Source: an uncultured virus (IMG/VR IMGVR_UViG_3300037493_001250)
Taxonomy: Duplodnaviria > Heunggongvirae > Uroviricota > Caudoviricetes
Virus record (IMG/VR): IMGVR_UViG_3300037493_001250
Reading direction: 5' to 3' (one strand)
Length of the DNA: 64,000 bases
The notes beneath the pieces are model-generated. The model was not told the origin of the DNA and searched no databases. It saw only the letters and a program-made list of their open reading frames with translations. Positions 1 through 60,284 of this stretch are shown here, one piece after another; positions within the stretch are counted from its first letter, which is position 1; each line of letters opens with the position of its first letter. The translations under genes and the position numbers were made by a program.

Positions 1-3000
1 GGACTAGGTGATGGTTTAAAGACTTTATCATCTTTTGCGGGTATTGAAGAAGGTGTTGTAATGGGAGACTATCTAAACTCTTTATTCACATTAAGTAGTC
101 CTAAGATAGATAACGTAAAAGACTTATTAGATATAACTAAGCTAAGTCGTTCTGCTGGTCAAATGATAGGCGGTATGACTCCTATGATTGCAGCACAAGC
201 TACAGTAGCAGCTTTAACAAGTGGTGCTTCTATACCAACTCAATTAATGCTTCAAGGAGGAATTGGTTTTACATTGGAGACAATGCAAAATGCGGGTGGT
301 GCTTATGAAGATAAGTTTGCAGAGACAGGTAACGTAGCAGCCTCAGAAAAAGCAGCTCAAATGCAAATAGAAGGTAATGCTTATTTGCTTCCTTTATATG
401 CTTTAGATGGATTACCATTCCTATCAGAGGTAACTTTAGGTATTAAAAATATTGCACTTAGAGGATTAGCCAAAGGTGCGATTGAGACAATAACGGAATT
501 ACCTCAAGAGTATTTTCAAGGTACATTTGAAGAATTAGCTCGTGAAAATAAAGGATTGAGTGATGTAGCAGAAAAAATGACTTTAGAAAGACTAGGGGAT
601 ACTGCTTTAAATATTATTCCATCTACCTTTACTATGGGTTCTGTACCAACATATGCAGGAGGAATAAGTCAATATGTTAAAAATGTAAACGCTTCTGCAT
701 TTGGTGCTAAACAAGATTTGGCTAGAATGTCTACAACTGCTTTACAGCAATATTTATATGGCATTACTTTACAAAGGGGAGAAGCTTTTGCAAAAGCATA
801 CCTAAGTGGGTTGCAACAGAACGGAAGTTTGAATAATGTAGATTTAGTGCAAGTAGCTAATGTTATTAATACAGCTAAGACTGTAGTAGAAAATGCTGCT
901 AAATTTAATTTAAACAGAGGAAAGAGCAGAGTGTATTCTTACTTCATGCTTAACCAAGAAATGGCTAAAGCTGAATTAGAAACTTCAGAAACTTTATCGG
1001 TACAAAAAGCCGCAGAAGCAAGAATGAAGATGTATGAAGAAGCTGCTGTTAATTTCTTAAGCACGGGTAAAGCTGATATTGCTGTTATTACATTAGCTAA
1101 TAATGAGCAGTATGTTGCCAATTTCCAAGAAATAAAAGCCATGCTAGAAGACCCTAAGTTCTCTGCAAGATTAGCAAACGGACAATTAGAGGTTACATTA
1201 GAAAAAGATAAAGATGCAACTGGATTTACTGCATTAACAGAACAAATAAATCAAATAAAAGAACAAGGTAGAATTAACAGGGAAACAACAACAAATGGAG
1301 AAGGAACAATTGAAGGAGCTAACAGTACAGGAACTAATGTGGCTGAAGAAGGACTTGGAGTGGCAAATGAACCAGGTAGTGAAGGTATTGCGGGAGAAGG
1401 TGTACAAGCCGAAACAATATCCCAAGCACCAGTAACTGTTGAAGATATAGAAGCAAGAAGAGAAGAAGCGTTAAGCCAATATGATGAAGAAGGCCTTAAC
1501 GAAGCTTATACAGTTGGTAGTAATCAAACAATAGGCGAAAGAATTAATGAACAATACGATGCAGAAATAGCCGCTTTAGAAGCAGCACAAACAGAAGCCA
1601 AGCCAATTGAAGAGCAGATAGAAGATTTAAGAGCGGAAGAACAAACAGTATTAGCTGATGCTATTCCTGATATAGCTGAGTATCTAAAAGATGGCACATA
1701 TGGTGAAAACCAAGGTAATATGCCAGACGAGTTGTATGCTATCTATAAACCTATCTATGATAAATACAATGAAGCAATTACTGCTTTATCAGAAGAACAG
1801 CAGGCAGCAGAGGAAGCAGACACAACCCAAGTATCACAATCAATAGGTACATCACCTAAAAATCTAAGAGACCTTTATAATGTTAATAGAGACATATTTG
1901 GATTAGGAAGGTTACAAGCTCTTGCAAGTGCAATAGCAATGGATAGAATGGTTGGTGCAATGGCTAAACGTGCAGGCATAACAAAGGCTGCAATGTATGG
2001 TAGAATAGACTTTAAAAAAGATACAGAACAAAATATACTTAAAGCAGATAACGCATTATTCCAAGGTGTTGTAAATGGCGAGAATGTTACTCTTAGAAAT
2101 TTAGATGTAGATGTTGTAAACGGATTCTATTCTCCACTTGAAAAGATAATTGCAGAGTCAAAACAAGATAAGATGCCTGCAAAGCAATGGATTGATAAAT
2201 TTGCAAAGGGAGAAGAAGCAAAATGGACAGGGCTTACAGACTGGTTATCACAACAAGAAGGAAGTGTATCTAAGAAGGATATACTTAATTACTTAAAAGA
2301 CAACAGGATTAATATTGTTGAAGTGGTTAAGGGTTCAGATAAAAAAATTAAAGAGTTATTAAACAGAAGAAATGATTTACTTATTATTGTAGGGGACTAT
2401 GAAAGAAAAATAGATGAAGAACTAAGTAAGGGAGTAGATAAAGCAGATGTTTCTATTTTAAATGATTTAGTAAAATCCAAAGTTCAAGCACAAAAAGATT
2501 TTGCCGTAGCAGATAGATTATATAATAACGCAGCCCAAAAAGATAATACCAAATTCTCTCAATACCAATTAGAAGGAGAAAAAGAAAACTACAAAGAAGT
2601 ATTGGTTACGTTGCCAAATCAAAAAGATAATTCTGTTAAAATAGTTAAAAGTGGAGATGGATATGTTATAGAAAAAGGAGGACAGGCGATTAGCCCTTTA
2701 TTCTATACCAAAGAACAGGCAGAAAATAATATAGGAAACTATATTAATAATGAAGGTACATTTAAATCTTCTCACTTTGACGAACCAAACATTCTTGTTC
2801 ATTTAAGAATGAATACCCGTACTGATGCCGATGGAAATAAAGTATTATTCCTTGAAGAAGTACAGAGCGATTGGGGACAGAAAGGGAAGAAGGAAGGGTT
2901 TAAAGGGGACAAATCAGAACAAGAATTAAAATCGGAACTTGAAAGACTAAAACAGAGCAGAGTTACTTTAGGGAATGACAATGCTTATCTTACTTATCAA

Positions 3001-6000
3001 AAAGAAATATTAAATCCTATTGCACAAAAACTTTATGGCAAAAATTATTCAGGAAACTTGGATTATAACCAAAGGCAAGAAGTGGAGTTCCAAGTTTATT
3101 CAAAGGATAAAGAGTTATGGCGAAAAATAGAAAATGCCGATAAAGATTTAAGGAAACAATTAAATGATATTGATGCAAAAGAAACTGAAATAGAAAATAA
3201 GATACAAGAAACCCCTTATGCAGTTCCTTCCGCCCCATTTGTAATGGACACAAACGATTGGGTTAAACTTGGATTAAAGGTTGCCCTTAAAGAAGCAATT
3301 GCTCAAGGTGCTGTTAAGATAGCCTGGACAACAGGAGAGCAACAGAATGATAGGTATGATTTGAGAAAGCAGGTTGATAAAATTGAAATAGAAAAACGAG
3401 AAGGCGCAGATAGCTACAGAGCAAAGACATATAAAGATGGTGAAATATTAGAAGACCAAGACTACATTGCTTTTAATGAATTAGAAGGAATGTTTGGTAA
3501 AGAGATAGCTAAAAAAGTACAAGATGGAGAAAGTGTTTTTGAGGGCGAAGGATTAGCAGTAGGTGGTAAAGGTATGAAAGGCTTTTACGGCTCACCAACA
3601 GAAGGTAGCTTAGGAATTGTAGGTAATGTAGCTAAGAACTTGTTTAAGCAAGAGCCGAAAGTAACAGACTTTGGTGGTGAAGTTGAGATTGTTGACAATA
3701 AGATATTAAAAAATGGTAACGAAGTTGGTAGTATAAAGAAGTCAAAATTTGAAGGTGATTTTATTGTTGAAAATGATGAAACAGGAGAAAGATTTGCAGT
3801 AAAAAGTGAGAAAGAAGCAACTGATATTTTTCAAAAAGGGTTATCCATCCAACACTCCATAGACGTAACACCTGCTTTGCGTGCAGAGGTAGAAAAAGGA
3901 TTAGCATTATTCCAAAAAGAACAAGGTGTTGCTAAAGGTGCAATGGTAGCGGCTGATGGTCGTTTTATAATTTACGCTATAACAGACCCTAACATATCAA
4001 CTCCATTACATGAGCTTGCACACGTATTTGAGCATTACCTTACAGAAAGTGAAAGCAAAGCTATTATTAAAAGTGCAGGTACAAAAGGATGGACAACTGA
4101 AACAAGCGAATATTTTGCAAGAGGATTTGAGAAGTATCTTGCAGAAGGTAAATCACCTATCCCTGGTTTAGAGAAACTATTTGCTAAGTTTAAGGAGTGG
4201 TTAACTGAAATATACAATGGCATAGTAGGTAGCGATATAGACATTAAGTTAAACAAGCCTATGCGTGATATCTACGCAGCAATGTTAGGTAAAGAGCCTG
4301 CTTCAAAAACAGCAGCTAAACCTGCAAAGTCAGAACGTAAGGCAATAGCAGAAGCTAAGATAGATGATTTAGCTGCCAAGGCAAAAGAGTTCTTGCGTAA
4401 TAAGAATTTACCTGAAGGTACACAAGTATCTGGTATAAGCCAAAACAAAGTAATTGATTTAATGGCAAGTACCGTAAAGGCACTTGTAAATAGTGGTATA
4501 GAAATAGCTGAAGCCATTAAGCAGGTGCGTGATTTCTTTGAGCAAGAGTACGATACAAGTGCTGTTAAAGATTACGAAATAGTTCAGTCAATTGCAAAAA
4601 GCGAATTAACGGATGTTGCAAAAGACAATGGTTTCTCATCATACCGTGAAGCAGTATTTGCAGTAAACAAGTATGTGCGTGCAGTAGGTAAAGAAGATAT
4701 AATAACAAAAGCAGAAATAGAAAAAGCAGCAGTCGAAGCAAAGAAAGCTAAGTCTTCAGAAAAAAAGGGATTCACTGGTAAAAAGAAAGTAAGTAAGTTC
4801 TACCAAACAGCACTAGCATACGTTCAGAATACCCCTGCAAGATTGCAAGACTTCTTAAAGGCTAATCCATTATCTTATGGTGTTGTATCTAATGAAGAAT
4901 CTATTAAGAAAGGTATTGAATATATTGAAAAGAATGGATTTGAAGAAACAATAAATGCCTTTTTAGCTAAACGATTGGATGTTAATGAAGACCCTGAACT
5001 GGTAATCTTTATTGCATATTTATTAAGAGGTGGTTTAAGTGATGCATTCACCGACATATCTAGAAGCATGAATAATGCTACGGATACCGATGAATTAGCT
5101 GCATTAAAGGAAGAATCAGACAAGATATTCAATTACATGAAAGATGTGACAGTTATGCTTGCTGACTTTTATTTTCCATCTTTTGGTAGGGCAATACAAG
5201 CAGGAGCATTATTTGCACGAGATTTAAGTACAGAAGATGGAGCTATATTCCACTTTACTAAGTTAACAGAAGAAGCAGCAAAAAATGCAAGAACAGCTAA
5301 CTTACAACAAGCAACTGAGCAAGTTGACACTGTAAATGAAGTAGTAGAGGAAGGTAAGGCTCAAGCGGCAAAAGAAGTAACTGAATATATTGTTAGTTCA
5401 AAAGATGTTCAAGCTAGAAATGCAACTAAGTTATCAAAAGCAAGAAAAGCAGCAGCTGATGCAAGAGAGAAGTTAAAGGCTGCATTAGCAAAGTATAAGA
5501 TTCTAGGGATTGCAAACGACCCATGGCAGCAAGCTAAAAATGATGTTGCTACTGTAAAGGCACTAACAAATTATGTTGCTGCACAATTAAAGTATAAATC
5601 AGTACAGGCATCACAAATAGTAAAAGAAATTGCTGACTTGCTAGGTATAAACGCAAGGTATATCCCGAAATCTGACATCCAAGATATAATGGATGCTGCA
5701 AAAGTGCAAGCTGAGAAGGATATGACATTTGATGAGATTACAAATGTTACAACACCTAAAGGAACTGCTTATGCAGAGCGTGTAGGTAAAGAGCTATCAA
5801 AAGACCCAAGTGCTATTAACAAAACAGTAGAGTCTATAATAGAAGATTACTATATGGGTAATCAAACATTAGACGAGATTGTTGCTATGGTAAAGCAAAG
5901 GTTTGATGTTACAGATGCACAAGCTATTACTATTGCTAAGAAAATCCAAGATTCAATAAATAATAACATTACAAAAAATCTTGAGAAGCAACTTAACAAA

Positions 6001-44986: not shown

Positions 44987-46267
44987 TTAATTGTTATTTT
45001 CGTTTACGTTTATATTCTCGAACTTAAGGCTGAATTTAATTAATCTATCCATAAGTACGTTATACTTATCTTTAGGATACATTTCCATAAGTAACTCACG
45101 CAATGGGCTTGTATTGGCATTAAAGAAAGCCTCTTTTACACATGATGTCTTGTGAGTAACAATAAATTCTATCAACCTTGCACGCCAGTGTAGTGTAGTA
45201 ACATTGGGTACGGCTGATACAATTCTGTACTCTATACGATTGCTATGTATCTTGATAGCCTGATACTTCTCGTTAGATTCTTTGAGGTCATTATTATTCT
45301 TACCCTTGCAGTATGTTTTATCAACACGCTTGTAGTATAGTGCATAGAATAGTGGTGTATAACCTTTGAGTTCGTCAAACAATTCATCGCCTGTCTTACC
45401 TGCCTCGCTTAGGTTGATATGTCCGCCACATGACTTGCTAATACTCGCATTGATATGAGCAACAATAGTTTTGTTAGACATAATATGCTCGTGTATCTTG
45501 TCGGGTATCAGCTCGAACTTAGGACTTATGAGTTCGTAACCGCTTTGATCATCAAGGCTACCGTCACGCTCTTTTTTCCAAGATGGGCAAACATCCTCGA
45601 ACTCGTCAATGAATATACTTTCTTTTACGTTTGAATCTTCTTTCTCTATCTCAAAGCCAACATAGAATTTAGGGTCATCCGTAAAATTAACCTCGTGTAA
45701 TCGTCCGCTATGGTAATCTCGTGTGTATTCAATAACTTCTTCTTCTTCTTCGTAATGGTATTCTCCGTCATTCTCCCAATAGTAAGCATTATCAATATGT
45801 TCAATACAACCATCACACATTATAACAAGGTCAAAGTCTTCAAGGTTTACGTACCAATCACCATCATATTTGTAAGCGTTATACCTTGCTGCATCAACAG
45901 ACCATCTCTCGGATACTCTGCGAGTAACCCATACTTCAACCGTTTCTTGCTCTATCCAAACATCATTACGCTCACAATAATAAGCATCATTAGTGTGCAA
46001 AACAATATCTGTATCGTCTGAAATCACATAGGTTTCTACATCATAATAGAAACCATCACGCTCAAGCACATCAACATCATTGATGATATCACATAAATCA
46101 ACATTGTGATCTTGCGTTGATATACGTATTTTGTCAACACTTGTGTTGTCATGTTCTTTTAAGAACTCTAAAAATACTTTTGGCTCGACATCATTACTGC
46201 GAGCAAGAGAGATAATCTCACGTAGTACGGGAATGCTATAGGTTAGCATTGTTGTTGTTGATTCCAT
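44987..46267 (-). CDS. Putative amidoligase (COOH-NH2 ligase superfamily) with an acidic N-terminal region
   Basis: GFEIEKE, ERDGSL, YELISP, SCGGHIN, KYQAI and RIEYR motifs; next to the GATase-II. Confidence 0.75.
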   Translation of the reverse strand: MESTTTMLTYSIPVLREIISLARSNDVEPKVFLEFLKEHDNTSVDKIRISTQDHNVDLCDIINDVDVLERDGFYYDVETYVISDDTDIVLHTNDAYYCERNDVWIEQETVEVWVTRRVSERWSVDAARYNAYKYDGDWYVNLEDFDLVIMCDGCIEHIDNAYYWENDGEYHYEEEEEVIEYTRDYHSGRLHEVNFTDDPKFYVGFEIEKEDSNVKESIFIDEFEDVCPSWKKERDGSLDDQSGYELISPKFELIPDKIHEHIMSNKTIVAHINASISKSCGGHINLSEAGKTGDELFDELKGYTPLFYALYYKRVDKTYCKGKNNNDLKESNEKYQAIKIHSNRIEYRIVSAVPNVTTLHWRARLIEFIVTHKTSCVKEAFFNANTSPLRELLMEMYPKDKYNVLMDRLIKFSLKFENINVNENNN

Positions 46268-46271
46268 AATT

Positions 46272-46412
46272 TTAGTTGTTTAATTTTTTAGTTAATACTT
46301 TAGTTTTGTTGTATTGACTAGCAATACCTTTAGCCTGTTGTTGGCTAGTTGTTGTGTAAATTAATGCCCAAAGATTGAATCGCCCTTGTGCATAGACATA
46401 GTACGTTTTCAT
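46272..46412 (-). CDS. Hypothetical protein (46 aa)
   Basis: Read by hand: MKTYYVYAQGRFNLW... Confidence 0.5.
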   Translation of the reverse strand: MKTYYVYAQGRFNLWALIYTTTSQQQAKGIASQYNKTKVLTKKLNN

Positions 46413-46431
46413 TTTTTTAAGTTGTTAATAA

Positions 46432-46515
46432 TTATTTTACGATATGTTCAGCGAAATAAGCCAGCGCATACACAATGATGGCAGCACATAGCAGTTCTTT
46501 TTTAGTTAGTTTCAT
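46432..46515 (-). CDS. Small membrane peptide (27 aa)
   Basis: Read by hand: MKLTKKELLCAAIIVYALAYFAEHIVK; A/C-rich leader. Confidence 0.45.
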   Translation of the reverse strand: MKLTKKELLCAAIIVYALAYFAEHIVK

Positions 46516-46524
46516 AATTGTATT

Positions 46525-47205
46525 GGTTGTTTAGTGGATGTGGATATTGTCGGTTAATCCATTGCACGCATTTAACGACATTGCGCACCCATTACCCTTC
46601 GTATTTCAACTTGCACACTAGATTGGGTCACTTAAGCAAGTTATAACATATATACACACGCTCACATTTAAGCGTGTATAGTTGAATAGATAAAAGTTGT
46701 ATTGATTTTTAAACGCATAATTGCGTTAGCATTATTAGTCCATCCCGTTAATCGTACCGATACTCTCGCATTGCGCCTATTAACCCTGCTTTATGGACAC
46801 ACTACATAACTAATAGCAGTGGGGAAACCGTAAGTTTGCCAAATTGCGAAAATAACAAGACACATATTGCTTGTATTAATACGGCTTATTGTGTTTCACG
46901 TATATGAATACTACACACACAATATTTTTAGTAATATACATAAATTGCATATTACATAGCATTGCTATAAAAATAGATATAATTGCATAGCATAGCTACA
47001 TACAAAAATACTAATTTATAAACTTGTCAAAGTACGAAACAAAATAATAAGCACGGCTTAATTATATTTTGCCCTAAAATACATACAGTTTGCACGGCAT
47101 TGACTGTATATAAGTTTGAAAACTGCAAATATTCGATATTTGCGCACCTCTATTTGCAAGGCACTAAGCAGTTTTATATGTGTCTAATAAATTGGACACA
47201 TTCCT
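46525..47205 (-). ncRNA. Candidate large structured non-coding RNA (~680 nt), family not recognised
   Basis: No ORF of 60 aa or more; more than ten nested helices seen by eye; strand assigned from the flanking genes. Confidence 0.55.
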
Positions 47206-47210
47206 GGTTT

Positions 47211-47588
47211 TTACTTGCTTATGCTATAAAGATATTGCAAAAGGTAAAAAGGTGAGTAATTACCTTTTTTAGACTTACGGCAGTTATTAACGGCAAGTTT
47301 GTATGCTTCGCTATCTTTGTTGATAGCTTGCAAGTTTTTAACCATAAGAGGCGAAAGTTTAAGTATGTTGGTATTGTTTATTAATACCTTAATACAATAA
47401 CCCAAAGTTTTACTCTCTTGCTTTAAAATTGCGTTACTATCTAATACTTGTAACTTGTAGTTACTTTCTTTCTTAGTAACTTCAATTTTACTGCTTACTT
47501 GCTTTAAGTTGTTAGCAGTTGCTTTGGTTGGTTTGTTGTTTGCAATGTTAGCACCTTGTGCCTTAGTTGCTTTCTTGTTGTTTTTCAT
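47211..47588 (-). CDS. Basic protein, first gene of the early-type operon
   Basis: K/N-rich, 125 aa, directly downstream of the promoter at 47629-47658. Confidence 0.7.
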   Translation of the reverse strand: MKNNKKATKAQGANIANNKPTKATANNLKQVSSKIEVTKKESNYKLQVLDSNAILKQESKTLGYCIKVLINNTNILKLSPLMVKNLQAINKDSEAYKLAVNNCRKSKKGNYSPFYLLQYLYSISK

Positions 47589-47628
47589 GTTATGTATATA
47601 TGTATGTGTTGTGTCTTATTGACGGGGA

Positions 47629-47658
47629 CAAAATTAGTATATAATGTATTGCAGTCAA
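47629..47658 (-). promoter_or_regulatory. Early promoter (-33 TTG, -7 TAATTTTG)
   Basis: Minus strand TTGACTGCAATACATTATATACTAATTTTG. Confidence 0.65.
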
Positions 47659-47762
47659 GAAATATTTTTATGATTAAAATCATGTTTTTTTATGATGTAG
47701 ATCAGCTTTTTAAATACTATTAAGAAACAAACTAAATAAGCGGAAATTGCAAAGTGCATGTA

Positions 47763-47843
47763 ATTTAGAATCATTCTGGATAAGGTATGTACTATCAAAG
47801 CTTTAAACTTTACTTATTCTTATTTAGACTAAATACAGATAAG
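47763..47843. promoter_or_regulatory. Two Fur-box-like palindromes
   Basis: ATTTAGAATCATTCTGGAT (47763-47781) and CTTATTTAGACTAAATACAGATAAG (47819-47843). Confidence 0.5.
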
Positions 47844-47862
47844 AGTATGTTATTCCCTCCTC

Positions 47863-47878
47863 TGTTCCACGTGAAACA
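47863..47878. other. parS: parS-like centromere site
   Basis: TGTTCCACGTGAAACA matches the chromosomal parS consensus TGTTNCACGTGAAACA; half-sites at 48164, 48234 and 46892. Confidence 0.75.
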
Positions 47879-48392
47879 ATACCAAAAATATAGCAAGTTT
47901 TATTTTTAAACTTTTGATATATAGCAAGATACAAAACTAACTAACGTTTGTTAGGTTAAGGTAGTGGGTGGGAGTAGAAGGCGGGGTGTCTATTTTATTG
48001 GACAGTTTTAGTGCTGATCGGTAGGGGTTACCACTAACTTAGACACTAAATAAGATAAATTTTGGTTTAGGTATTACCCCAGGGAGGGGGTTAAAAGGGG
48101 GTATATTCTGTGTAATACGCATATAATACCGTAAATATGGGTATATATGGTAAATATATGAAATGTTCCACGGTTGATAATGAGGTAGTTAGTAAAAATA
48201 GCCCCGACAAAACACTTTTGGGGTGTGGTAATATGTTCCACGGTAATATATATTAGATACAGGCACTACTGCGGGCGGAATGCCGACTGAGGTTGTAAAG
48301 CTATAGGTTTACTAATAGAAAACTTTTGTAAAGCTATGTCTTTACGTTTGTACCTTATAGGGTGTAGCAGGCACTTTGTGGGGTGTGGGCAT

Positions 48393-48416
48393 AAAAAAAC
48401 CACCCGTAGGTGGCTT
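48393..48416 (-). terminator. Rho-independent terminator
   Basis: Minus strand AAGCCACC-TACG-GGTGGTTTTTTT after the stop at 48420. Confidence 0.75.
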
Positions 48417-48419
48417 GAT

Positions 48420-48632
48420 TTAATCTTTTTCTCCGTATACCTCTTCGTAGTACTCCTCTGCTGTCATGTCTTGTCCATCATCAAGGTAGTCACTTACGAA
48501 CTGGCATACTTCTTCTTTGTGCATTGCTTTGGCTTGTTCAATAGTTTCTTTGAATATCTCATTAATGTAACTATATGATTCTTCAAATTGCTCTGCTAAC
48601 CATTCTACGCTACTTTGATTTTTGTTGCTCAT
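48420..48632 (-). CDS. Hypothetical protein
   Basis: QSSVEWL...AKAMHKE...AEEYYEE pattern; start revised to 48632. Confidence 0.65.
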   Translation of the reverse strand: MSNKNQSSVEWLAEQFEESYSYINEIFKETIEQAKAMHKEEVCQFVSDYLDDGQDMTAEEYYEEVYGEKD

Positions 48633-49351: not shown

Positions 49352-49366
49352 ATCTTTAATTCTTTG

Positions 49367-49493
49367 CAGTCAGAATCCGATTCGAACGGATACCTATTAT
49401 TGGATTTCTCCTAAGTATGAGGTGTGCTTACGATTATAGTTTCAAATCTTTATCACTCCATCCTATAGCGTCTACCATTTCCGCCACCTGACT
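49367..49493 (-). ncRNA. tRNA-like RNA with an expanded centre (no canonical anticodon loop)
   Basis: Acceptor AGTCAGG/TCTGACT, D-arm GGCGGAAATGGTAGACGC, T-arm ATCCG-TTCGAAT-CGGAT; 127 nt. Confidence 0.7.
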
Positions 49494-49586
49494 GTATTTA
49501 ATTAATAGGCATTAATGTACTATGTTGGGACTTAACCTCACTTCTTCCATATATTTACTACTTTATCTCCTATTAATTAAAATGTT

Positions 49587-49827: not shown

Positions 49828-49941
49828 ATGACTGATGAACAAATTAAAGAAATCGAAGATAGACTAGAACAGCTTGAGAAAGAACAAGCTAACTTGGAAC
49901 TAGATATCGACACAATTCTTAAAAGATTATCTTGCAATTAA
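49828..49941 (+). CDS. Small coiled-coil protein (37 aa)
   Basis: ATG 3 nt after TATATTTG; MTDEQIKEIEDRLEQLE. Confidence 0.5.
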   Translation: MTDEQIKEIEDRLEQLEKEQANLELDIDTILKRLSCN

Positions 49942-49966
49942 TATTATTACGTATTACATTTGAATT

Positions 49967-59502: not shown

Positions 59503-59604
59503 AGTTTTGTTGTTATTTCAATTACAAATGTAATACAAAAATAAATAAATACAAATATTATTTTTTTTACTTGCTATTTATAAAAAAGGTATTACTTTTG
59601 TCAT

Positions 59605-60252: not shown

Positions 60253-60284
60253 TTTGCATATTACAATATAACGTATTACATTTG
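60253..60284 (+). promoter_or_regulatory. Full Bacteroidetes promoter (-33 TTTG, -7 TACATTTG)
   Basis: TTTG-N20-TACATTTG. Confidence 0.75.

What the first reader, a model, noticed from the sequence alone, without database searches (positions are those of the whole stretch)
46525..47588. ~680-nt densely structured non-coding RNA directly behind the first, highly basic early gene
Seen: in an otherwise gap-free genome, 46525-47205 lacks ORFs and is tiled with nested helices. On the minus strand these include TGTGTC/GACACA, AAAACTGC/GCAGTTTT, GCAAATAT/ATATTTGC, ATACAGT/ACTGTAT, GCTTATT..GTTTCGTA/TACGTGAAAC..AATAAGC enclosing TAGTATTTTT/AAAAATATTG, GTCCAT/ATGGAC enclosing GTTAAT/ATTAAC, AACGCA/TGCGTT, TATACACGCT/AGCGTGTGTA, AACTTGC/GCAAGTT, TTCAAC/GTTGAA and TGTCGTTAA/TTAACCGACA. 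G-U pairs occur on both strands, so orientation is uncertain. It follows a K-rich 125-aa ORF with no intervening terminator. Knowledge: the size is in the range of large phage ncRNAs (ROOL, GOLLD), but I cannot match either. Inference: a new large RNA, perhaps forming an RNP with the basic protein, or an antitermination element for the ~10 kb early operon.
Basis: partly seen in the sequence, partly recalled or inferred. Interest (0 to 1): 0.8.

Follow-up and report, generated by a model that had tools for sequence, protein, structure and literature searches.

The report
Structured RNA spacers in phage operon
The gap behind the first gene of this crAss-like phage operon holds two conserved folded RNA elements with an exchangeable middle piece between them, a new example of the unexplained intergenic RNAs seen in the early regions of such phages.

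Summary
The ORF-poor stretch 46516-47210 is real. It lies in a ~64-kb crAss-like phage, between a 125-aa gene and a run of minus-strand genes.

Evidence for RNA structure:
- Three sequences were available: the window and two metagenome relatives whose neighbouring protein is 81-82% identical.
- They keep a set of hairpins through 11 compensatory base-pair changes and 9 G-U-type changes.
- In the 3' part, all 17 changed stem positions stay paired.
- Wobble pairs and consensus energy favour the minus (gene-sense) strand.

Evidence against one giant RNA:
- Folding energy is only mildly better than shuffles, and no better for the best-conserved 3' part.
- Relatives swap the parts independently.
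- The middle part carries a promoter-like site and two short hydrophobic ORFs.

There is no match to Rfam, including ROOL, GOLLD and tmRNA.

My reading is two structured RNA elements (about 175 and 280 nt) flanking a small cassette. They resemble in position the abundant, stable early intergenic RNAs of phage phi14:2, one of which I find to be a tmRNA. Function is inferred, not shown.

The parts
47211..47588 (-). 125-aa ORF: variable K/N/T-rich N-terminal ~40 residues plus a conserved helical C-terminal domain.
   Evidence: ORF list. No Pfam or PHROG family. 46 homologs with E<=0.01 among 61 candidates, all unnamed. AF2 mean pLDDT 78, residues 1-30 under 50. No fold match: Foldseek best E 3.9, VIA best Z 4.4.
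47629..47658 (-). Promoter-like site TTG-N19-TAATTTTG (Bacteroidota -33/-7 type) about 40 nt before the 125-aa ORF.
   Evidence: Pattern scan. That this is the Bacteroidota consensus is recalled knowledge, not tested.
47035..47210 (-). 5' structured element. P1: 47200-47179. Three-way unit P2 (47175-47170 / 47124-47119) enclosing P3 (47164-47144) and P4 (47143-47125). P5: 47112-47080, with inner triloop hairpin P5a. P6: 47074-47037, with inner triloop hairpin 47060-47048.
   Evidence: Window and L079 fold independently into the same architecture. In this part 4 pairs are compensatory and 4 change on one side only; P1's ends and one P5a pair are not kept. P2 and P5 also keep pairing across indels on both arms (read). 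Replaced by 101 other letters in one DNA contig.
46806..47034 (-). Exchangeable middle piece: promoter-like TTGACA...TATTTTTG (47030-47003), hairpin M1 (46955-46931), short ATG frames 46962-46876 and 46865-46791.
   Evidence: Promoter pattern; its -7 box is not kept in L079. The piece is a different sequence in L080 and is replaced by 158 other letters in a DNA contig. sORFs. MFE z -1.45. A 136-nt run (46794-46929) is identical in L079.
46520..46806 (-). 3' structured element. H7: 46798-46793 / 46743-46738. H8: 46784-46779 / 46752-46747. H9, with GAGA/GUGA loop: 46776-46756. H10: 46727-46712. H11: 46680-46653. H12: 46642-46636 / 46614-46608. Candidate pseudoknot H13: 46628-46625 / 46597-46594. 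H14: 46588-46564. H15: 46561-46541.
   Evidence: Kept in the window, L079 and L080. Window vs L079: 32 variable columns, 17 of them in pairs, all still paired (7 compensatory pairs plus 3 one-sided). RNAalifold without my input finds 6 compensatory pairs. Covariance models R1 and R2 hit only these three sequences among 83 sources. Contigs of an RNA library cover 46495-46719 of a relative.
46432..46515 (-). 27-codon hydrophobic ORF that follows the element. In L079 another ORF is inserted between the element and this ORF.
   Evidence: Sequence; alignment.

Best explanation
The gap is a transcribed spacer in a minus-strand phage operon. It carries two conserved RNA elements that act through their fold: a ~175-nt 5' element (one hairpin, a three-way unit, two long hairpins with triloop tips) and a ~280-nt 3' element (nine helices, one a candidate pseudoknot). 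Between them lies an exchangeable ~230-nt piece that probably holds its own promoter and one or two tiny membrane-peptide genes.

Shown:
- the hairpins are maintained by compensatory evolution
- the gene-sense strand fits better than the opposite strand
- the parts are swapped as separate modules
- the same genome slot in sister phages holds other, unrelated structured RNAs

Inferred: the elements are cut out of, or outlast, the operon transcript and accumulate as stable non-coding RNAs that act in trans on the host during takeover. This would match the abundant early intergenic RNAs of crAss-like phage phi14:2 and the tmRNA and tRNA-like RNAs that fill this slot in relatives.
For: Covariation:
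- On my curated 120 pairs, 98.7% of cells are paired and 11 pairs are compensatory. 0 of 500 shuffles reach this, and slid controls give 0-2.
- In the 3' element, 17 of 17 changed stem columns stay paired.
- RNAalifold alone finds 6 compensatory pairs there.
- The 5' element folds alike in the window and in L079 despite 34 changed columns.

Strand:
- The 9 one-sided changes all pass through G-U on the minus sense.
- Consensus energy is -61.8 sense against -53.4 antisense.
- MFE is -171.5 against -153.6.

Selection on loops: unpaired columns of the 3' element differ at 15 of 166. Fourfold sites of the neighbouring gene differ at 19 of 107.

Slot and precedent:
- L001, L003 and L004 have 600-900-nt gaps at the matching place.
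- A sister family of gaps has 14 of 45 predicted pairs compensatory, and its tRNA-like end has 6 of 16.
- The phi14:2 preprint reports two long early intergenic regions transcribed above most genes and stable (passages read).
- One of those regions is a tmRNA by ARAGORN and Rfam.

Independence from the downstream ORF: L079 has a different ORF right behind the 3' element.
Against: - Only three sequences were available, and I chose the helix set while looking at them.
- When the window's single-sequence MFE pairs (span 60) are projected on L079, 19 changed pairs are kept and 20 are broken. Much of any MFE drawing is therefore not conserved.
- The 3' element's MFE is no better than shuffles (z +0.05), and the middle piece reaches only z -1.45.
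- Overall identity to L079 is 87.5%, little above the neutral proxy of 82%.
- No transcript ends, strand or abundance are known. The RNA-library contigs may be DNA carry-over, come from a relative, and cover only 46495-46719.
- No own terminator or conserved promoter marks discrete RNA genes.
- No tRNA-like end is present here, unlike in sister loci.
- No homology to the phi14:2 region was found.
Confidence: 0.45

Rival explanations
1. A cis-acting leader or spacer. The folded elements control the operon they sit in. They could make the polymerase terminator-resistant (as HK022 put or lambda nut do), attenuate or terminate behind the 125-aa gene, gate translation of the next ORF, or serve as RNase processing and stability hairpins between cistrons (as at the T7 early RNase III sites).
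For: - The position is behind the first gene and before ~8-9 kb of co-oriented genes.
- The 3' element always ends about 20-25 nt before a start codon, whichever ORF follows.
- P5 and P6 are followed by or contain U-rich runs, and H11 is scored terminator-like.
- H9 carries a GNRA-type loop that stays GNRA in L079.
- The put, nut and T7 comparisons are recalled knowledge.
Against: - The ORF behind the element differs between the window and L079, so it is not a dedicated riboregulator of one gene.
- The elements are exchanged as modules.
- The complexity and loop conservation of H7-H15 exceed simple processing hairpins.
- No terminator downstream has been shown that would need antitermination.
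Confidence: 0.27
2. One reading: one ~680-nt globally folded RNA in the class of ROOL or GOLLD, possibly forming a particle with the basic 125-aa protein.
For: - Size, density of hairpins and a phage setting.
- Whole-region z of -3.12 (20 shuffles).
- The 125-aa gene and the gap are adjacent in the window and L079.
- The protein has a basic disordered N-terminus.
Against: - No Rfam match even at E<=10.
- The parts are replaced independently in L080 and in two DNA contigs.
- The middle piece has a promoter-like site and sORFs.
- L001's 123-aa ORF before its gap is not detectably similar to the 125-aa protein.
Confidence: 0.1
3. A DNA-level element. The hairpins would form in DNA, for example as extruded hairpin promoters for an injected virion RNA polymerase (N4 style), or as an origin of replication with an AT-rich centre.
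For: - There are three hairpins with 3-nt loops: P4, P5a and inner P6.
- The phi14:2 virion polymerase prefers single-stranded templates and its early promoters have no known motif (passages).
- The centre is AT-rich.
- P1's three mismatches are A-C type, which would be G-T on the plus strand, and P1 is scored terminator-like on the plus strand.
- The phage encodes a DnaA-C-like protein and a primase-helicase.
- N4 promoter anatomy is recalled knowledge.
Against: - There are 13 G-U against 1-2 A-C cells per full-length sequence (7 against 0 in the partial L080) in the helices, and 9 one-sided changes through G-U. These would be A-C mismatches on the other DNA strand.
- The near-DnaA box ATATCCACA is the 3' arm of H15 and changes with its partner in L079.
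- No iterons were found in the gap.
- GCCGTGC is not a shared motif of related gaps.
Confidence: 0.08
4. Mostly small-protein coding or decaying sequence. The gap would be a string of tiny genes or remnants, and the hairpins incidental.
For: - Two ATG frames of 28 and 24 codons are kept in L079.
- L080's different middle piece has a 31-codon frame ending at the same stop.
- The AAUACA...AUG context resembles that of the 27-codon ORF downstream.
- Sequence conservation is near the neutral level.
Against: - Outside 46791-46962, no frame is shared by the window and L079.
- Indels of 1, 4 and 8 nt occur.
- Changes in the 5' and 3' elements come as paired compensations, not as third-codon positions.
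Confidence: 0.1

Closest known systems
Abundant early intergenic long non-coding RNAs of Cellulophaga crAss-like phage phi14:2 (Drobysheva et al., preprint 10.1101/2020.03.07.982082; passages read)
   Same: A crAss-like phage. The ORF-free stretches of about 690 nt sit between the first genes of a co-oriented operon and are transcribed in the gene sense (phi14:2: 2905-3589 and 3911-4601). Function is unknown.
   Different: No sequence or covariance-model similarity, and no similarity of the neighbouring proteins. Expression here is not measured. One phi14:2 RNA is a tmRNA, which this one is not.
Phage tmRNA and tRNA-like modules in the same slot of sister phages
   Same: The same slot, upstream of the 426-aa gene homolog. 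They are structured, sense-strand and supported by covariation.
   Different: The window's gap has no T-arm, no acceptor stem and no ARAGORN or Rfam tmRNA/tRNA hit.
ROOL and GOLLD large phage-associated RNAs (Rfam families)
   Same: Several hundred nucleotides, many helices, phage-borne, function unknown.
   Different: No model match at gathering score or at E<=10. There is no evidence of one global fold, and the parts are exchanged separately.
HK022 put and lambda nut antitermination RNA sites (recalled)
   Same: Structured RNA in the early transcript near its start. nutR lies behind the first gene, cro. The sites use hairpins with GNRA-like loops.
   Different: Those sites are about 15-70 nt. 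This region is 175 + 280 nt with nine or more helices. No N-like partner or downstream terminator is identified, and nothing was tested.
T7 early-region RNase III processing hairpins (recalled)
   Same: Conserved hairpins between cistrons of a phage early operon that shape mRNA stability.
   Different: T7 sites are single interrupted hairpins. Here the multi-helix elements have conserved loops and a candidate pseudoknot. Cleavage was not tested.

Membership tests
ROOL / GOLLD (Rfam) | Match to the family covariance model | tested here: not met
   cmscan of the whole window at gathering score gave 0 matches. At E<=10, 46000-48500 gave 7 weak matches to unrelated families, best E 1.3.
ROOL / GOLLD (Rfam) | One large multi-domain fold held together by long-range helices | tested here: inconclusive
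The modules are swapped separately. Tertiary contacts cannot be seen with these tools.
tmRNA | tRNA-like domain: acceptor stem plus a T-arm with a 7-nt T-loop | tested here: not met
   ARAGORN found 0 genes in the window. The T-arm pattern is absent from 46516-47210. No tmRNA hit at E<=10.
phi14:2-type early intergenic lncRNA | A long ORF-free stretch between early genes, on the gene-sense strand | tested here: met
   ORF lists. Strand support from G-U pairs and consensus energy. phi14:2 layout. That the window's operon is 'early' is inferred, not shown.
phi14:2-type early intergenic lncRNA | High and lasting transcript abundance from the earliest time point | not testable with these tools
   Only contigs of one RNA library could be laid. 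They come from a ~90% relative and cover 46495-46719. Contigs give no level or strand, and DNA carry-over is possible.
phi14:2-type early intergenic lncRNA | Homology to the phi14:2 RNAs | tested here: not met
   R1 and R2 find nothing in L085. The models come from three near-identical sequences, so their reach is short.
N4-type hairpin promoter for a virion RNA polymerase (recalled definition) | A 5-7 bp stem with a 3-nt loop and shared sequence, upstream of early transcription starts | tested here: inconclusive
   Triloop hairpins P4, P5a and inner P6 exist, and two share GC-CGU-GC. No start sites are known. No DFDxD motif and no Pfam family were found in the 3002-aa ORF.
lambda nut / HK022 put | RNA site that binds N or the polymerase and suppresses downstream terminators | not testable with these tools
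   Only the position (behind the first gene) and hairpins with a GNRA-type loop in H9 can be seen.

The most novel reading that the evidence does not exclude
The first intergenic slot of the early operon in crAss-like phages is a hot-spot for interchangeable host-takeover RNAs. Depending on lineage it holds a tmRNA (phi14:2), RNAs with a tRNA-like end (about 20 sister loci), or, as here, a pseudoknotted ~280-nt RNA of a new class (H7-H15) plus a ~175-nt companion. On this reading the new class acts in trans on the host translation or RNA-decay machinery rather than on the phage's own operon.
Probability: 0.25. Interest if true: 0.8.

Novelty: new variant of a known kind. Interest (0 to 1): 0.55.

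Why it matters
crAss-like phages are among the most abundant viruses known. Their earliest transcripts include very abundant RNAs whose role nobody has explained. This window adds a covariation-supported, Rfam-absent RNA family to that class.

It also shows that the slot is modular and filled by unrelated RNAs in different lineages, and links it to translation-related RNAs (tmRNA, tRNA-like ends) in relatives. If these RNAs are takeover or anti-defence effectors, they would be a new layer of phage-host conflict carried out by RNA. The H7-H15 element is small enough for direct structural and genetic study.

Tried and rejected
- **DnaA-box or origin idea.** The near-consensus ATATCCACA at about 46548 is the 3' arm of H15 and covaries in L079, so I dropped it.
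- **GCGCAA and GCAA(T) motifs.**
  - GCGCAA: 3 of the 4 minus-strand copies in 64 kb lie in the gap, and L001 has 5 sense copies in its gap region.
  - GCAA: 15 sense against 3 antisense. GCAAT: 9 against 0.
  - I read this as the recurrent stem design ...GCA/UGC... rather than a proven binding site. 13 of 1267 sliding windows elsewhere also reach 14 or more GCAA.
- **GCCGTGC as a shared motif of related gaps.** Not enriched.
- **Internal promoter at 47030-47003.** The -7 box is not kept in L079.
- **Looking for more sequences.**
  - Phage database, blastn: no match.
  - IMG/VR with the 125-aa protein or its alignment: none.
  - Genome contigs: none.
  - Exact-pattern scans: none, or one unrelated GC-rich hit, L084.
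  - blastn of 46400-48100 against 77 loci: two weak hits only.
- **Covariance models R1 and R2 over 83 sources (877,083 bases).** Only the three building sequences scored. R2's next best hit has E 1.1.
- **Sequencing runs.** 23 of 24 listed runs hold only small shares of the 4-kb stretch. I draw no habitat or expression claim from them. Parts without cover in the RNA-library run (46778-47447) are no evidence of absence.
- **Fold of the 125-aa protein.** No match worth naming.
- **Whole-genome search.** No genome is held for this window.
- **Literature.** Searches for crAss-like plus structured or non-coding RNA, and for tmRNA plus Cellulophaga phage or crAss-like, gave no paper naming these RNAs (listings only). 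The phi14:2 preprint mentions tmRNA only as an ARAGORN method step.

Full report
**Setting.**
- The window is most of a ~64-kb phage related to crAss-like viruses. It has a Crassvirus muzzle-protein match (PF25731, E 5.8e-33), terminase, portal, primase-helicase, two methyltransferases and a 3002-aa ORF with no family.
- Related IMG/VR contigs are 60-69 kb long.
- Genes run on the plus strand up to about 37.9 kb. From there to about 56.3 kb they run on the minus strand.
- On the minus strand there is a strong terminator-like hairpin at 48416-48397.
- After it comes an ~800-nt ORF-poor stretch (48396-47589) with C-rich tracts and three copies of CGTGGAACA.
- Next is a promoter-like TTG-N19-TAATTTTG at 47658-47629.
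- Then come the 125-aa ORF (47588-47211), the gap under study (47210-46516), and ORFs of 27, 46, 426, 281 and 237 aa and more.
It fits the layout but is not shown.

- No ATG ORF of 30 aa or more lies in the gap.
- No Rfam family matches at gathering score in the whole window or at E<=10 around the gap.
- ARAGORN finds nothing.
- Folding energy is only moderately unusual: the whole region gives z -3.12 on the minus sense and -2.48 on the plus sense, from 20 shuffles each.
- With 200 shuffles, the 5' 146 nt gives -2.92, the middle -1.45 and the 3' 286 nt +0.05.

**Relatives.**
- The 125-aa protein has no relative in IMG/VR.
- The neighbouring 426-aa protein brought 76 loci at 28-52% identity. 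From metagenomes it brought three close ones, L078-L080, at 81-82% identity.
- L079 covers the whole gap. L080 covers its 3' 420 nt.
- None of the 77 distant loci shares detectable DNA similarity with the gap. Neither do they match covariance models of its 3' element.
- Many of them, however, have a 600-900-nt ORF-free stretch in the matching place.

**Covariation.**
- On the three-sequence alignment I set out 18 helices (120 pairs) and counted them with the tool.
- 98.7% of 297 cells are standard pairs. 11 pairs changed on both sides and stayed paired. 9 changed on one side through G-U. 4 cells are unpaired: three at the ends of P1 and one in P5a.
- No shuffle of 500 reaches the observed compensatory count. 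Sliding the partners by 1-3 columns gives 0-2.
- Because I chose the helices while seeing the sequences, these controls overstate the case. Three checks are less circular:
  1. RNAalifold alone on the 3' element finds 6 compensatory pairs (H7, H8, two in H10, two in H15).
  3. In the 3' element, all 17 variable columns that fall in stems keep pairing, out of 32 variable columns.
- Against this, when the window's own MFE structure is projected on L079, 19 changed pairs are kept and 20 are broken. Many pairs of any single-sequence drawing are therefore not real.
In the first of these, the changed base is instead compensated inside the local hairpin P6.

**Strand.**
- Compensatory Watson-Crick changes are blind to strand, but wobble pairs are not.
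- The helices hold 13 G-U against 1-2 A-C cells per full-length sequence, and 7 against 0 in the partial L080.
- All 9 one-sided changes run through G-U on the minus sense.
- Consensus energy of the 3' element is -61.8 kcal/mol on the sense strand and -53.4 on the antisense strand.
- P1 is the exception. Its mismatches are A-C type, and it scores as a plus-strand terminator-like site.
- I conclude that the structure acts in RNA of the gene sense, with moderate confidence.

**One RNA or several parts?**
- No helix joining the parts survives comparison.
- L080 carries a different, shorter sequence in place of 46806-46994.
- One DNA contig of a relative replaces 46806-47034 by 158 other letters. 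Another replaces 47080-47205 by 101 letters.
- The RNA-library contig of a relative keeps 46595-46719 and then runs on unlike sequence.
- The parts are therefore:
  - a 5' element, 47210-47035
  - a middle piece, 47034-46806
  - a 3' element, 46806-46520, whose H11-H15 half seems the most widely shared
- The middle piece begins at a promoter-like TTGACA...TATTTTTG, which is not kept in L079.
- It holds two short ATG frames, 46962-46876 and 46865-46791. The second is hydrophobic and has an AAUACA...AUG context like that of the 27-codon ORF downstream. Both are intact in L079.
- L080's unrelated piece has a 31-codon frame ending at the same stop.
- A 136-nt run (46794-46929) is identical between the window and L079, although fourfold sites next door are only 82% identical. 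This fits recent exchange of a cassette.
- I could not test coding further, because the protein search refuses queries under 40 aa.

**What fills this slot elsewhere?**
- A family of gaps in sister phages (L001, L011, L012, L013, L015, L025, with L026 in part) shares a ~230-nt core. In it, 14 of 45 predicted pairs are compensatory.
- That family ends in a small tRNA-like module (acceptor stem, short hairpin, T-arm with TTCGATT loop). 6 of its 16 pairs are compensatory. ARAGORN and Rfam do not call it.
- A T-arm pattern lies upstream of the 426-aa homolog in about 20 loci.
- In cultured crAss-like phage phi14:2, the preprint by Drobysheva et al. reports that the g004-g005 and g005-g006 junctions are transcribed above most genes. 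They are present from the earliest time point, do not decline, and are of unknown function (passages read).
- In the RefSeq record these junctions are 2905-3589 and 3911-4601.
- The second contains a tmRNA by ARAGORN (4031-4500, with a tag peptide) and by Rfam RF00023 (46 bits against a gathering score of 47, E 2.6e-16). In the passages I read, the preprint does not say so.
It is not independent evidence.

**Mechanism.**
- Shown: conserved sense-strand RNA hairpins, modular exchange, and positional analogy to RNA genes in relatives.
- Inferred: the two elements persist as stable RNAs and act in trans. I give this about 45%.
- The main rival, at about 27%, is a cis role for the operon: antitermination, attenuation behind the 125-aa gene, translational gating or processing.
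- For the rival: the 3' element always sits about 20-25 nt before a start codon.
- Against the rival: that ORF differs between the window and L079.
- A DNA-level role (hairpin promoters or an origin) is disfavoured by the G-U pattern and by the loss of the DnaA-like box through covariation.
- The 125-aa protein has a variable, basic, disordered N-terminus and a conserved helical domain with no fold match. Whether it binds the RNA is open.

**Novelty and score.**
- The kind is in print: unexplained structured RNAs between the early genes of crAss-like phages.
- This family is new to Rfam and unrelated to the phi14:2 RNAs. The modular architecture, and the link of the slot to tmRNA and tRNA-like RNAs, are additions.
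- With three sequences and no expression data, I score interest at 0.55.

Noticed in passing
L085:4031-4500 (Cellulophaga phage phi14:2, NC_021806): The g005-g006 'long non-coding RNA' region of phi14:2 contains a tmRNA. ARAGORN calls it with a tag peptide, and Rfam RF00023 gives 46 bits (gathering score 47), E 2.6e-16. The RefSeq record annotates no RNA gene there. A second T-arm-like motif lies at 1826.
   Followed up: partly
L001:2190-2261; L012:3560-3623; L015:3535-3597; L011:5420-5486; L013:4475-4542; L004:5555-5612: The gaps of sister phages end in a small tRNA-like module: acceptor stem, short hairpin and a T-arm with a TTCGATT-type loop. 6 of 16 pairs are compensatory. ARAGORN and Rfam tRNA do not call it. 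A T-arm pattern lies upstream of the 426-aa homolog in about 20 loci.
   Followed up: partly
window 49365-49500 (minus strand): A tRNA-like stretch with T-arm ATCCG-TTCGAAT-CGGAT at 49391, a GTCAG/CTGAC acceptor-like pairing and a D-arm-like GGTAGA, but about 130 nt long. ARAGORN does not call it, and Rfam gives nothing at E<=1.
   Followed up: partly
window 47589-48396 (minus strand): A second ORF-poor stretch of ~800 nt lies upstream of the 125-aa gene. It has CGTGGAACA three times (48242, 48172, 47871), C-rich tracts, and a copy of the P1 hairpin at 48004-47986. A strong terminator-like hairpin at 48416-48397 precedes it. It is possibly the control region or genome end. Similar C-rich tracts stand in L001 and L003.
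   Followed up: no
window, e.g. 49792-49763, 50826-50796, 54193-54164, 59554-59525 (minus); 49932-49962, 59571-59600, 60254-60284 (plus): A recurrent promoter-like consensus TTG-N17-21-(G)TATTACATTTG occurs at about ten intergenic sites. It is of the Bacteroidota -33/-7 type (recalled), which suggests a Bacteroidota host and host-polymerase transcription of these units.
   Followed up: no
L004:4720-5000: The gap of this 50% relative holds two near-identical promoter-like sites (TTCTTGCAAA...TAnnTTTG). Each is followed by ORF-free, GC-richer sequence, as if they were separate RNA genes.
   Followed up: no
window 46794-46929 vs L079: A 136-nt run has no difference between two phages whose neighbouring gene is only 82% identical at fourfold sites. 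It covers the short ORFs of the middle piece, which suggests recent cassette exchange.
   Followed up: partly
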